Shown here: piece by piece, positions 20,830 to 24,320 of the stretch
How positions within the stretch are numbered: position 1 is the first letter of the stretch
How the letters are laid out: each line of letters starts with the position of its first letter
Assembly: GCF_013315695.1 (NCBI RefSeq)
Contig: NZ_CP054353.1
Origin: Escherichia coli
GTDB lineage: Bacteria; Pseudomonadota; Gammaproteobacteria; Enterobacterales; Enterobacteriaceae
DNA: 64,000 bases
Strand: one strand, 5' to 3'
The notes under the pieces: model-generated
Told to the model about the DNA's origin: nothing
What the model saw: the letters and a program-made list of their open reading frames with translations, nothing else
The model's database searches: none
Position numbers and translations under genes: made by a program

Positions 20830-20950
20830 GATTTCGTCCTTATTAAGGTGGTTATTTACACCTTAGCGCAAAGCGGATGTGGTTCCTACTGGAGTGCGCA
20901 TAACGAACACAAGCACTCTCGTGGATAAATTGAGAACGAAAGATCAAAAA

Positions 20951-21040
20951 AAAAGCCAGCACCCGGCTGGCTAAGTAATACTGGAAGCAATGTGAGCAAT
21001 GTCGTGCTTTCAGGTTCTCCGCGAGGGTCTTCCTGATCGC
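20951..21040 (-). ncRNA. ryhB: RyhB small RNA (Fur-repressed, Hfq-dependent)
   Basis: Reverse complement of 20951..21040 reads GCGATCAGGAAGACCCTCGCGGAGAACCTGAAAGCACGACATTGCTCACATTGCTTCCAGTATTACTTAGCCAGCCGGGTGCTGGCTTTT, the RyhB sequence as I know it, ending in a GCCAGC/GCTGGC terminator hairpin and U-tract. ORF-track entries 20852..21100 and 21010..21225 across it are spurious. Confidence 0.9.
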
Positions 21041-21651: not shown

Positions 21652-21886
21652 GATAGTGCCCTTTTTCTGAGATGGAAAAAGGGCGTCATTCAAAATCGGC
21701 ATATCTTCCTTTAATGTATTTATTTGCCCAATAAATATATTGAGATTTACCTCATAATTACGTCCTAAAGTGTAATATTTTATTATTAATATATACGCCT
21801 ACAATTTCCTGGAGTAAATAAATAACAATTAACAAGCATAATAGTGCCATTAATAAAATAGCATGCCATAAAAGGACTTTTCAGGG

Positions 21887-23065
21887 ATGAGTAATATTGT
21901 TTACCTGACAGTAACGGGAGAACAACAAGGAAGCATCTCCGCAGGTTGTGGGACTTCTGAGTCTACAGGTAATCGCTGGCAGAGCGGGCATGAGGATGAA
22001 ATATTTACATTCTCACTCTTAAATAGTATTACTAATACGGGGCTTGGTTCACAGTTCCATGGTATAACATTTTGTAAATTAATTGATAAAAGCACTCCAT
22101 TATTTATTAATTCCATTAACAATAATGAACAATTATTTATGGGATTTGACTTCTATCGAATAAATAGATTTGGTAGATGGGAAAAGTATTATTATATACA
22201 ACTAAGAGGCGCTTTTTTATCGGCTATTCATCATCAGATCATTGAAAATCAACTGGATACAGAAACAATAACTGTTAGTTATGAATTTATCCTCTGTCAA
22301 CATATTATCGCAAATACCGAGTTCAGCTATTTGGCACTCCCTGAAAATTATAACTGTTTGTTTTTACCAAATTCAAAAAACCAAACAAATAATCGTTTCA
22401 AAACGTTAAACAGCAAAGCTATTGGCAGGCTACTTGCTGCTGGTGGCGTATACAATGGGAACATTGAAGGATTCAGAGATACTGCGGAAAAACTGGGTGG
22501 AGATGCAATAAAAGGCTATGATCAAATACTAAATGAAAAAACAGCGGGCATAGCGATAGCAACAGCATCTATTCTTTTAACAAAGCGTTCTAATGTTGAT
22601 ACATATACAGAAATAAATAGTTACTTAGGCAAACTTAGAGGTCAACAAAAACTTCTTGATGGTATAGACATAATAGAAATAATATACATTAAGAGACCTT
22701 CAAAAGACTTAGCTAACTTACGAAAGGAGTTTAATAAAACTGTAAGAAAAAATTTTCTTATCAAACTTACAAAAACCTCCGAAGCATCTGGAAGATTCAA
22801 CGCCGAAGACCTTTTAAGAATGAGAAAGGGCAATGTTCCTCTAAATTATAATGTTCACCATAAACTATCTCTAGATGATGGTGGTACTAATGATTTCGAA
22901 AATTTAGTATTAATCGAAAACGAACCATATCATAAAGTTTTTACTAACATGCAATCACGAATAGCTAAGGGAATATTAGTAGGTGAAAGCAAAATCACTC
23001 CCTGGGCCATTCCATCTGGCTCAATTTATCCTCCCATGAAAAATATTATGGAACCCACAAAATGA
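21887..23065 (+). CDS. yhhZ: Hcp-family (T6SS tube-like) protein with C-terminal HNH-type nuclease motif; orphan Hcp-toxin fusion
   Basis: 392 aa; Hcp-like N-terminus MSNIVYLTVTGEQQGSISAGCGTSESTGNRWQSGHEDEIFTF; C-terminal NYNVHHKLSLDDGGTNDFENLVLIENEPYHKVF (HH..N..H pattern); AT-rich codon usage. Confidence 0.85.
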   Translation: MSNIVYLTVTGEQQGSISAGCGTSESTGNRWQSGHEDEIFTFSLLNSITNTGLGSQFHGITFCKLIDKSTPLFINSINNNEQLFMGFDFYRINRFGRWEKYYYIQLRGAFLSAIHHQIIENQLDTETITVSYEFILCQHIIANTEFSYLALPENYNCLFLPNSKNQTNNRFKTLNSKAIGRLLAAGGVYNGNIEGFRDTAEKLGGDAIKGYDQILNEKTAGIAIATASILLTKRSNVDTYTEINSYLGKLRGQQKLLDGIDIIEIIYIKRPSKDLANLRKEFNKTVRKNFLIKLTKTSEASGRFNAEDLLRMRKGNVPLNYNVHHKLSLDDGGTNDFENLVLIENEPYHKVFTNMQSRIAKGILVGESKITPWAIPSGSIYPPMKNIMEPTK

Positions 23066-23556
23066 TGACTAAAACCCAAATAAATAAATTAAAAAAAATG
23101 ATGAATGATTTAGACTATCCATTTGAAGCACCGCTCAAGGAATCATTTATTGAAAGTATAATCCAAATAAAATTTAATTCTAATTCAACTAATTGCCTGG
23201 AGAAGTTATGTAATGAAGTTAGTATTCTCTTTAATAATCAACCTGATTATCTTACTTTTTTAAGAGCAATGGATGGATTCGAAGTTAATGGATTACGATT
23301 ATTCAGCCTCTCGATTCCAGAACCTTCAGTTAAAAACCTTTTTGCCGTAAATGAATTTTATAGAAATAATGATGATTTCATAAACCCTGATCTACAAGAA
23401 CGGTTAGTGATCGGGGATGATAGCATTTCAATATTTACTTATGACATTAAAAATAACTTTTTTGAAATTAGAGATAATATTGGCACAGAAAATATATTCA
23501 GTTCGTTTAGTGATTTCTCTTCATTCTTAAACGAAATCATGGACAGTTGTTCATAA
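23062..23556 (+). CDS. yrhA: Hypothetical protein, candidate immunity protein for the YhhZ nuclease
   Basis: 164-aa ORF whose ATG overlaps the yhhZ stop (ATGA); AT-rich; immunity role inferred from arrangement only. Confidence 0.65.
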   Translation: MMTKTQINKLKKMMNDLDYPFEAPLKESFIESIIQIKFNSNSTNCLEKLCNEVSILFNNQPDYLTFLRAMDGFEVNGLRLFSLSIPEPSVKNLFAVNEFYRNNDDFINPDLQERLVIGDDSISIFTYDIKNNFFEIRDNIGTENIFSSFSDFSSFLNEIMDSCS

Positions 23557-24005
23557 TAATCAAAAGGTAACAAAAATCATTATAAACCATGCCATCTTTT
23601 TAGAGATTACCAGCAGAAAATTCCTTGTTCGAAACTTAGCAATGCAAGCTATGGAAAAACTTACAACGGAACTACACTCCTTAAGTGAGATGGACCGAAG
23701 ACATGTAATCTCTATTTTAGCCGAAATAGCTAATGGCTATGATGATTTTAGTGACATGTTGATTTAGTTAGAATTTCACCCGAATCATAAGATTCTGATA
23801 TCTTAAATAAGAAAATCCCGTTCGACGTTCTGAAAAAGAAATCACAAAACATTAGCAGATACTTATTTCGTGACTGTATATTATCCGATGAACTTTTTTC
23901 AAAACCAGCATTTAATAATATCTTTGACGAAGATGAACGCGTCTTTTCTCAAAGTATAACGCAAGAATAATAATATAACGATCAACAATAATATTTATTA
24001 TAATT

Positions 24006-24290
24006 ATGATTACTTATCACGACGCATTCGCGAAAGCGAACCATTACCTTGATGATGCAGATCTCGCCGTCATCATTACTCTACATGGACGCTTTAGCCA
24101 GGGCTGGTATTTCTGTTTCGAAGCACGAGAATTTCTCGAAACTGGTGATGAGGCCGCGCGTTTAGCCGGTAACGCACCTTTTATTATTGATAAAGACAGT
24201 GGTGAAATTCATTCCCTTGGAACGGCAAAGCCGCTGGAAGAATATCTACAGGATTATGAAATAAAAAAGGCTACCTTCGGCTTGCCCTGA
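24006..24290 (+). CDS. yrhB: YrhB-family small protein (reported heat-stable chaperone-like protein)
   Basis: 94-aa ORF MITYHDAFAKANHYLDDADLAVIITLHGRFSQGWYFCFEAREFLETGDEAARLAGNAPFIIDKDSGEIHSLG..., recognised as YrhB. Confidence 0.8.
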   Translation: MITYHDAFAKANHYLDDADLAVIITLHGRFSQGWYFCFEAREFLETGDEAARLAGNAPFIIDKDSGEIHSLGTAKPLEEYLQDYEIKKATFGLP

Positions 24291-24296
24291 CAATAC

Positions 24297-24320
24297 GGCC
24301 CTCTTCCCACGAAGAGGGCC
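24297..24320. terminator. Bidirectional terminator hairpin between convergent yrhB and ggt
   Basis: Perfect 10-bp stem GGCCCTCTTC-CCAC-GAAGAGGGCC between the two stops. Confidence 0.6.

What the first reader, a model, noticed from the sequence alone, without database searches (positions are those of the whole stretch)
23642..23767. Unannotated 41-codon ORF in the AT-rich spacer after yrhA
Seen: ATG at 23642 opens a 41-codon frame (MQAMEKLTTELHSLSEMDRRHVISILAEIANGYDDFSDMLI) ending at 23767, below the ORF-track size cut-off. Inference: could be a remnant of a further immunity gene or a small protein; no strong RBS, so weak.
Basis: seen in the sequence. Interest (0 to 1): 0.25.

Follow-up and report, generated by a model that had tools for sequence, protein, structure and literature searches.

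The report
Decayed immunity-gene relic, known as yrhD
The small open reading frame is the already-annotated E. coli locus yrhD, here cut short by a stop codon, and it is the decayed remnant of a toxin-immunity gene, so it is ordinary and almost certainly non-functional.

Summary
The 41-codon ORF (23642-23767) exists exactly as described, but it is not new. It is yrhD (b4612 in K-12), which RefSeq annotates as 'protein YrhD'. In this haplotype TAT->TAG at 23765-23767 truncates the 51-codon K-12 frame, and PGAP flags the identical sequence as a pseudogene. ORF length alone is what chance gives in this 31% GC spacer.

Homology shows what it is. Extended upstream to 23546, where there is no start codon, the frame aligns almost end to end with an 80-84-residue four-helix protein family. 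That family overlaps the 3' end of CdiA-CT toxin genes in Photorhabdus and Serratia. It also sits in orphan toxin/immunity arrays of CDI loci, and it is intact in the syntenic yhhY-ggt Hcp-effector island of Citrobacter braakii. The annotated yrhD ATG is an internal Met of that family.

pN/pS is about 1-2, and 8 of 19 family-conserved residues are lost. Another E. coli haplotype carries different knock-outs. A second immunity-gene relic (23806-23970) abuts it.

Verdict: a decayed orphan immunity gene. Interest is low.

The parts
23642..23767 (+). TAG): the window strain's truncated yrhD allele
23651..23806 (+). Span equivalent to K-12 yrhD (b4612, 51 codons + TAA). In strains identical to the window, RefSeq annotates 23651-23764 as pseudogene 'protein YrhD, incomplete'
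23765..23767 (+). Premature stop TAG (TAT = Tyr39 in K-12-like alleles, TGG in BCE049-like)
23546..23806 (+). Whole relic of an 80-84-aa four-helix immunity-family gene. The frame is open from 23531, with no ATG/GTG/TTG before 23642. The profile match covers 23552-23746 (HMM positions 3-67 of 83). The 5' end overlaps the last codons of yrhA
23806..23970 (+). Second relic, in another frame: the N-terminal ~53 codons of a homologue of the 86-aa gene that follows the Hcp effector and precedes yrhB in Citrobacter braakii. The start codon is lost (AAT) and the 3' part is deleted. The K-12-like allele also has CAA->TAA inside
21887..23065 (+). Context: yhhZ, an Hcp fused to an HNH nuclease (T6SS Hcp-ET type effector)
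   Evidence: PMC5714182; PMC6730261
23062..23556 (+). Context: yrhA (YrhA/YPO0640 family). It overlaps yhhZ by 4 nt, which is the position of the cognate immunity gene
24006..24290 (+). Context: yrhB, Pfam Imm35 immunity-protein family
23469..23498 (+). Promoter-like site TAGAGA-18-TATATT inside the yrhA 3' end. The same hexamers are listed upstream of yrhD in a genomic SELEX study. This is a consensus-level match only
   Evidence: PMC3946193

Best explanation
The ORF is the window strain's allele of yrhD. yrhD itself is a dead fragment of an orphan immunity gene that once belonged to a polymorphic-toxin locus.

The ancestral gene encoded an ~83-residue four-helix protein. In Photorhabdus and Serratia this kind of protein is encoded overlapping the 3' end of a CdiA-CT toxin gene, so it presumably neutralises that toxin by binding it (inferred from position, not tested).

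In E. coli the gene sits in the low-GC yhhY-ggt island, behind the Hcp-HNH effector yhhZ and its immunity gene yrhA. It has lost its start codon and the codons for helix 1 are not translatable. Two of 7 invariant residues, and 8 of 19 residues conserved in at least 90% of the family, have been replaced. It evolves neutrally.

The annotated ATG is an internal methionine in the middle of helix 2. In this strain's haplotype a further TAT->TAG mutation removes helix 4. Any peptide made (38 or 41 aa) would be about one and a half helices of a four-helix bundle and is not expected to fold or protect.

Shown: the identity with yrhD, the nonsense mutation, the homology and its extent, the missing start, the contexts, and the lack of purifying selection. 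Inferred: the immunity function of the intact family, and the non-function of the remnant.
For: (1) Identity with yrhD. The spacer matches 3804 of 5426 complete E. coli genomes, where it is annotated 'protein YrhD'. K-12 MG1655 has b4612 at the same place. The identical strain AR_0013 and other window-like strains (EC6868, E118, RIVM_C037166) mark it as an incomplete pseudogene.

(2) Nonsense mutation. TAT->TAG is seen in the alignment and translations.

(3) Homology. An exhaustive HMMER search of 1.84 billion proteins found a 79-aa homologue, P0016 (E 2.4e-4, 38% identity over 65 ungapped residues), starting 25 codons upstream of the yrhD ATG. tblastn found homologues in Rahnella, Ralstonia and Pantoea. 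A profile search found 343 family members of 80-84 aa. A profile with no E. coli sequences hits only this frame in the window (59 bits, E 3.9e-17, HMM positions 3-67 of 83).

(4) No start codon. No ATG/GTG/TTG lies in frame between the stop at 23528-23530 and 23642.

(5) Context of intact members. The gene overlaps by 14 nt the end of a >2930-aa CdiA in Photorhabdus and of a PT-VENN orphan CdiA-CT in Serratia. The two toxin tails are nearly identical. Members are orphans inside CDI arrays in Leclercia, Buttiauxella, Pectobacterium, Pantoea, Rahnella and Ralstonia. One is intact in the syntenic yhhX-yhhY-...-Hcp-...-Imm35-ggt island of Citrobacter braakii.

(6) Neutral evolution. pN/pS is 0.9-2.3 for yrhD plus its extension, against 0.14-0.46 for yrhA and 0.08-0.57 for yrhB. 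Only 11 of 19 conserved columns are kept.

(7) Independent inactivation. The BCE049-like haplotype has ATG->ATA plus an internal TAA. Among carriers, about 475 genomes have the window-like allele, about 480 the BCE049-like allele and about 2847 the intact K-12-like allele.

(8) Structure. The AlphaFold model of an intact member has pLDDT 93.8 and four helices (4-22, 30-44, 49-63, 68-80). The yrhD Met maps to column 37.
Against: The K-12-like 51-codon frame is intact and nearly invariant in about 2850 genomes (68 identical copies were also noted in PMC3575317). A promoter-like site was reported upstream (PMC3946193). Lack of a Shine-Dalgarno sequence is not decisive, because yrhB, which has a family match, also lacks one. 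No expression data could be consulted. The pN/pS values rest on few substitutions (at most 10 N and 1 S in the 51 codons). The immunity function of the family is inferred from gene position only. Three of about 12 contexts sampled are solitary genes away from any toxin.
Confidence: 0.85

Rival explanations
1. yrhD encodes a functional small protein of its own, exapted from the C-terminal two thirds of the old gene. It would be 51 aa in K-12-like strains, with a shorter 38/41-aa variant here.
For: The 51-codon frame is intact and uniform in about 75% of carrier genomes (PMC3575317). It is annotated as a protein in K-12. A promoter-like site lies upstream.
Against: The uniformity extends to the whole 449-nt spacer, including non-coding parts, so it reflects a shared haplotype rather than constraint on the ORF. 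Substitutions between haplotypes are almost all non-synonymous, with pN/pS around 2. The start codon is lost in one haplotype, and stops are present in two haplotypes, about 25% of carriers. There is no SD. The product would begin mid-helix 2 of a four-helix bundle. About 30% of E. coli genomes lack the locus altogether.
Confidence: 0.08
2. It is a chance ORF in AT-rich non-coding DNA with no coding ancestry.
For: ORFs of at least 41 codons arise in 59% of simulated spacers. There is no RBS and no Pfam, NCBIfam or Rfam hit.
Against: The frame shows significant, non-circular homology to a protein family and to the syntenic Citrobacter gene.
Confidence: 0.01
3. The spacer now works mainly as a regulatory or leader region for yrhB, carrying a promoter, H-NS-bound AT-rich DNA or a 5' UTR. 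The ORF would be incidental to that role.
For: Promoter-like sites lie at 23946-23974 and 23982-24010, just upstream of yrhB. H-NS is listed at this region in PMC3946193. yrhB is kept even in island variants that lack yhhZ, yrhA and yrhD.
Against: The number of promoter-like sites does not exceed shuffled controls (5 against 3.8 +/- 2.0). Nothing ties such a role to the ORF. This role would be compatible with the relic explanation rather than an alternative to it.
Confidence: 0.05
4. The full-length frame is expressed as a YrhA-YrhD fusion by +1 ribosomal frameshifting at the end of yrhA. The relic frame is +1 relative to yrhA and stays open across its stop.
For: The frame is open from 23531 across the yrhA stop. 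Fusion proteins of 222-246 aa exist in databases.
Against: Those database fusions come from indel variants or single short contigs, not from the reference sequence. No frameshift-stimulating motif is evident at 23540-23560 (read). The downstream frame evolves neutrally and carries stops.
Confidence: 0.01

Closest known systems
yrhD (b4612) of E. coli K-12 MG1655, 'uncharacterized protein YrhD', 51 aa
   Same: Same chromosomal site between yrhA and yrhB. Nucleotide identity over the 156-nt gene is 97.4%, and the frame is the same.
   Different: The window allele has TAG instead of TAT at codon 39, so it is truncated to 38 aa from the RefSeq start. It carries Ile23, Ser36 and His45 instead of Val, Asn and Tyr.
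Orphan cdiA-CT/cdiI modules downstream of CDI loci (Poole et al. 2011, PMC3150448)
   Same: Intact homologues of the relic lie in exactly such arrays, and in two genera in the cognate cdiI position overlapping a CdiA-CT. A displaced immunity gene that lacks its toxin is the known pattern.
   Different: The E. coli copy lies in a T6SS Hcp-effector island, not a CDI locus. It has no start codon, is degenerate, and matches none of the Pfam CdiI or Imm models.
Hcp-ET effector/immunity islands of Enterobacteriaceae (Ma et al. 2017, as reviewed in PMC6730261; YhhZ as a His-Me finger nuclease in PMC5714182)
   Same: The relic sits in the yhhZ (Hcp-HNH)-yrhA-...-yrhB (Imm35) island. The Citrobacter braakii version of the island carries the intact gene.
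   Different: The relic is not the cognate immunity gene of YhhZ, because yrhA holds that position with a 4-nt overlap. It is a leftover from an earlier or neighbouring module.
Colicin/pyocin DNase immunity proteins (Im7/Im9 type, ~85-aa four-helix)
   Same: Similar size and an all-helical four-helix architecture in the model of the intact family. This resemblance is recalled from general knowledge.

Membership tests
E. coli yrhD (b4612) locus | Orthologous position (yrhA-yrhD-yrhB-ggt) and near-identical DNA | tested here: met
   100% to 92% identity across 3802-3804 genomes, with the same flanks
E. coli yrhD (b4612) locus | Intact 51-codon reading frame | tested here: not met
   TAG at codon 39. 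RefSeq marks the identical sequence as an incomplete pseudogene
Unnamed 80-84-aa four-helix family (YrhD-like; no Pfam/NCBIfam model) | Significant sequence match to a profile of the family | tested here: met
   59 bits, E 3.9e-17, profile without E. coli sequences; E 2.4e-4 against 1.84 billion proteins
Unnamed 80-84-aa four-helix family (YrhD-like; no Pfam/NCBIfam model) | Complete ORF with its own start codon covering all four helices | tested here: not met
   No ATG/GTG/TTG in frame before 23642. The frame is cut by TAG at 23765. The model gives the helix positions
Unnamed 80-84-aa four-helix family (YrhD-like; no Pfam/NCBIfam model) | Family-conserved residues retained | tested here: not met
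   11 of 19 columns conserved at >=90% are kept. Invariant F22 and D31 are replaced by I and N
Unnamed 80-84-aa four-helix family (YrhD-like; no Pfam/NCBIfam model) | Purifying selection on the frame | tested here: not met
   pN/pS 0.9-2.3, against 0.08-0.57 for yrhA and yrhB; based on few substitutions
CdiI-type immunity proteins (functional class) | Encoded immediately downstream of, or overlapping, a CdiA-CT toxin | tested here: met
   Met for intact family members: 14-nt overlap in Photorhabdus and Serratia. Not met for the E. coli relic itself, which follows yrhA
CdiI-type immunity proteins (functional class) | Binds and neutralises the cognate toxin | not testable with these tools
   Needs co-expression or competition assays
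CdiI-type immunity proteins (functional class) | Match to an existing CdiI or Imm Pfam model | tested here: not met
   No such hit at E <= 1-10 for the relic or for 6 family members
MafI family immunity protein (name NCBI gives to one member, P0077) | Match to an NCBIfam MafI model | tested here: not met
   hmmscan of P0077 and 8 other members against NCBIfam 20.0 at E <= 10 gave no MafI hit. The name is a lead only
Colicin/pyocin DNase immunity proteins | Pfam Colicin_Pyocin match or structural similarity to Im7/Im9 | tested here: not met

The most novel reading that the evidence does not exclude
The intact 80-84-aa family would be a previously undescribed CdiI immunity family. Its cognate would be an undescribed CdiA-CT toxin domain, the ~150-residue tail shared by Photorhabdus and Serratia, which has no Pfam, NCBIfam or PDB match. 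The E. coli K-12-type 51-aa remnant would still be translated from its internal Met and retain some activity, for example partial protection or a decoy role. Its loss in this strain's haplotype would then be a real phenotypic difference.
Probability: 0.05. Interest if true: 0.4.

Novelty: already known. Interest (0 to 1): 0.13.

Why it matters
It matters little for biology at large. It is useful for annotation: the K-12 'gene' yrhD would be better labelled as a gene fragment or pseudogene. The spacer between yrhA and yrhB consists of two juxtaposed immunity-gene relics, which records past turnover of toxin/immunity modules in the yhhY-ggt island. As a by-product, a widespread small family (343 or more members in Enterobacterales and Ralstonia) with no Pfam or NCBIfam model can be proposed as a CdiI-type immunity family. 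Its cognate toxin domain is also unclassified.

Tried and rejected
(1) I first 'repaired' the spacer into one 108-136-aa gene by joining yrhD to the downstream open frame. This was rejected. No database protein spans both parts, and the two parts match two different Citrobacter genes.

(2) Pfam, NCBIfam, PADLOC-independent family scans and PDB sequence searches gave nothing for yrhD, its extension or family members.

(3) The word-indexed protein search with the E. coli sequence returned only E. coli variants and yrhA-yrhD fusion calls.

(4) The scan of one genome per species found only one locus. It is an E. coli-like contig binned in a 'Flavihumibacter' MAG.

(5) P0001 is an 88-aa version with an ATG start in an ATGA overlap, and it looked like an intact E. 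coli allele. Its 588-nt scaffold is chimeric. The first ~55 nt belong to an unrelated high-GC organism, and no complete E. coli genome or plasmid has the junction.

(6) The 'MafI family immunity protein' label on one member was not reproduced.

(8) Rfam found nothing in 23400-24100.

(9) A distant blastn of the Citrobacter island against all complete E. coli genomes found no E. coli copy of the intact gene.

(10) Hemm et al. 2008 (small-protein tagging) is not held in the paper library. 'b4612' and 'yrhD' text searches gave no expression data.

Full report
**Observation**

The window region is the E. coli yhhX-yhhY-yhhZ-yrhA-[spacer]-yrhB-ggt-yhhA-ugpQ neighbourhood. ATG at 23642 and TAG at 23765-23767 give 41 codons, and the peptide is exactly as written.

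The ORF lies in a 449-nt spacer (23557-24005) of 31% GC. This spacer is inside a low-GC island (21887-24290, 34% GC) in a 52% GC window. By length alone the ORF is unremarkable: 59% of 2000 Markov simulations of the spacer contain an ORF of at least 41 codons. Neither ATG (23642 or 23651) is preceded by a Shine-Dalgarno-like sequence (read). No Rfam family matches the region.

**It is an annotated locus**

The spacer matches 3804 of 5426 complete E. coli genomes, always on the chromosome. The feature annotated under it is 'protein YrhD'. In K-12 MG1655 it is yrhD, b4612, 'uncharacterized protein YrhD', 51 aa.

The first ATG (23642) is GTG in K-12-like strains and ATA in a third haplotype. The K-12 frame ends at the position equivalent to 23804-23806.

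In the window a TAT->TAG change at 23765-23767 (Tyr39) truncates the frame. In the strain with an identical spacer (AR_0013) and in the other window-like strains sampled (EC6868, E118, RIVM_C037166), PGAP marks 23651-23764 as an incomplete pseudogene.

A search with the 156-nt gene sorts complete genomes into three haplotype classes plus non-carriers:

| Identity to window allele | Genomes | Allele |
|---|---|---|
| >=99% | 475 | Window-like, Tyr39 stop |
| 95-99% | 2847 | K-12-like, intact 51 codons |
| 90-95% | 480 | BCE049-like: ATG->ATA at the RefSeq start plus an internal TAA |
| no match | 1624 | Locus absent |

The allele of each identity band was checked only on the sampled rows.

**What the frame is**

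The yrhD frame is open upstream as far as 23531, across the yrhA stop codon. It contains no ATG/GTG/TTG before 23642.

- An exhaustive HMMER search of 1.84 billion representative proteins found, apart from E. coli variants, one distant homologue. This is P0016, 79 aa, E 2.4e-4. Its ungapped 65-residue alignment (38% identity) begins 25 codons upstream of the yrhD ATG.
- tblastn of P0016 against plasmids then found homologues in Rahnella, Ralstonia and Pantoea megaplasmids.
- A profile of these sequences retrieved 343 proteins, nearly all 80-84 aa. They come from Enterobacterales (Rahnella, Serratia, Citrobacter, Pantoea, Kluyvera, Klebsiella, Leclercia, Lelliottia, Photorhabdus, Pectobacterium, Salmonella enterica subsp. 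indica and others). None has a Pfam domain.
- A profile built from 68 of these, with no E. coli sequence, was run against every stop-to-stop peptide of the window (1853 peptides). The only hit above the inclusion threshold was 23531-23764, with 59 bits and E 3.9e-17. The aligned part is 23552-23746, covering profile positions 3-67 of 83.

In the multiple alignment the E. coli frame spans the family nearly from end to end. The family's start codon maps to about 23546, so the relic's first codons overlap the end of yrhA. The annotated yrhD Met is an internal position, column 37.

An AlphaFold model of an intact member, made with the 68-sequence alignment, is confident (pLDDT 93.8, pTM 0.82). It shows four helices at 4-22, 30-44, 49-63 and 68-80.

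- K-12 YrhD would therefore start in the middle of helix 2.
- The window's product would in addition lack helix 4.

**What the intact family does (inference from context)**

- In Photorhabdus the gene (P0116) overlaps by 14 nt the 3' end of a CdiA of more than 2930 residues (TPS and DUF637 domains).
- In Serratia proteamaculans a homologue (P0019) overlaps by 14 nt a PT-VENN orphan CdiA-CT. The last ~150 residues of the two toxins are almost identical. That tail has no Pfam, NCBIfam or PDB match.
- In Leclercia, Buttiauxella, Pectobacterium, Pantoea dispersa JL.02bL, Rahnella and Ralstonia the gene is an orphan. It sits among CdiA-CT fragments and known immunity genes such as CdiI, Imm63, colicin-immunity and SymE.
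- In Citrobacter braakii an intact copy (P0104, 41% identical to the E. coli frame) lies in the same chromosomal island as in E. coli. The order there is yhhW-yhhX-yhhY-[294 aa]-[P0104]-[88 aa]-[Hcp-ET, 417 aa]-[86 aa]-[Imm35 = yrhB]-[83 aa]-ggt-yhhA-ugpQ.
- Three contexts are solitary: Kluyvera, a Klebsiella-type defence island, and Pantoea VWJL.

Being encoded right after a CdiA-CT is the defining position of CdiI immunity genes. Arrays of displaced 'orphan' modules are well described (Poole et al. 2011, PMC3150448). I therefore read the family as a CdiI-type immunity family. Binding and neutralisation were not, and cannot be, tested here.

One member carries the NCBI name 'MafI family immunity protein', but no NCBIfam model matches it. 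Fold searches gave no specific relative.

**The E. coli copy is decaying**

Between the three haplotypes, substitutions in yrhD plus its upstream extension give pN/pS of 0.9-2.3. In the 51 codons proper there are up to 10 non-synonymous substitutions against 1 synonymous. The comparable pN/pS values are 0.14-0.46 for yrhA and 0.08-0.57 for yrhB. The counts are small, but they are incompatible with constraint of the strength seen in the neighbours.

Of 19 alignment columns conserved in at least 90% of the family, E. coli keeps 11. Two of 7 invariant residues are replaced, F22->I and D31->N.

The uniformity of the K-12-like allele was noted as 68 identical copies in PMC3575317. It is matched by equal uniformity of the whole spacer, so it reflects a shared haplotype, not selection on the ORF.

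The island as a whole is unstable:

- IS1 interrupts yrhA in K-12.
- yrhA is frameshifted in some strains.
- yhhZ carries an internal stop in BCE049.
- Some variants have only yrhB, others a DUF4225 gene, and others nothing between yhhY and ggt.

**A second relic**

Immediately after yrhD, in another frame, 23806-23970 reads NKKIPFDVLKKK...SITQE*. This is 47% identical (E 5e-15) to the first 53 residues of the Citrobacter 86-aa gene. That gene follows the Hcp-ET effector by 1 nt and precedes yrhB.

Its ATG is AAT in E. coli and its 3' third is deleted. The K-12-like allele also has an internal TAA. The 449-nt 'spacer' is thus two abutting immunity-gene remnants in front of the still-intact Imm35 gene yrhB.

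**Mechanism and rivals**

Best explanation (0.85): a non-functional remnant of an orphan immunity gene, further truncated in this lineage.

The main rival (0.08) is that the 51-aa K-12 frame has become a small protein in its own right. An intact frame in ~75% of carriers and a SELEX promoter-like site speak for it (TAGAGA-18-TATATT, window 23469-23498; PMC3946193). Everything in the previous section speaks against it.

Three further readings were considered:

- A purely chance ORF is excluded by the homology.
- A regulatory role of the spacer for yrhB is possible but would be independent of the ORF.
- A YrhA-YrhD frameshift fusion has no support beyond rare indel variants in databases.

**Comparison with the known, and novelty**

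The feature is the known locus yrhD, so it is already known as a feature, and its pseudogene status in this haplotype is already in RefSeq. This analysis adds three points:

- yrhD as such is a 5'-truncated gene fragment.
- Its parent family is an unclassified CdiI-type immunity family.
- A second relic sits beside it.

This is an incremental annotation insight and is not surprising for a toxin/immunity island. Interest is low (0.13).

Noticed in passing
window 23806-23970 (+): A second gene relic in a different frame. It is homologous (47% identity, E 5e-15) to the N-terminal 53 aa of the 86-aa gene that follows the Hcp-ET effector and precedes yrhB in Citrobacter braakii. The start is lost (AAT) and the 3' part is deleted.
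   Followed up: yes
window 21700-24300: The yhhZ-yrhA-yrhD-yrhB island is 30-34% GC against 52% for the window. It is structurally polymorphic among 5426 E. coli genomes. The full island is in 3757. Other variants are yhhY-yrhB-ggt, yhhY-DUF4225-ggt (O157:H7) and an empty yhhY-ggt junction. IS1-mediated deletions also occur.
   Followed up: partly
L019:7560-8014 and L027:5560-6014: The ~150-residue C-terminal tail of a Photorhabdus CdiA and a Serratia orphan CdiA-CT is nearly identical and has no Pfam, NCBIfam or PDB sequence match. It is a candidate unclassified toxin domain, cognate to the YrhD-like family.
   Followed up: partly
L031 (ENA metagenome scaffold, 588 nt) and L032: The database protein P0001 is an 88-aa 'full-length YrhD with ATG'. 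It comes from a chimeric scaffold that joins ~55 nt of an unrelated high-GC organism to E. coli DNA. This is an assembly artefact that mimics an intact allele.
   Followed up: yes
L004 (CABHOW010000200.1): A 3996-nt contig binned in an 'uncultured Flavihumibacter sp.' MAG carries the E. coli-type yrhD spacer at 92% protein identity. It is probably E. coli contamination or mis-binning.
   Followed up: no
window about 20946-21040 (-): By synteny with K-12 (ryhB lies between yhhX and yhhY), the small RNA gene ryhB should lie here. This was not checked with Rfam.
   Followed up: no
L021:8317-8583 and L021:10779-11030: The Citrobacter braakii island holds two paralogous 83-88-aa genes flanking the Hcp-ET module. 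They have weak EarA-like/Imm27 hits below threshold. E. coli genomes show blastn matches to them elsewhere, next to other tssD genes.
   Followed up: no
   Followed up: partly
L012:1662-1961 (Rahnella plasmid CP042359.1): PLSDB lists a predicted 'OXA-678 beta-lactamase, identity 100%' over a 300-nt hypothetical membrane-protein gene right after a CdiA gene. It looks like a spurious resistance-gene call.
   Followed up: no
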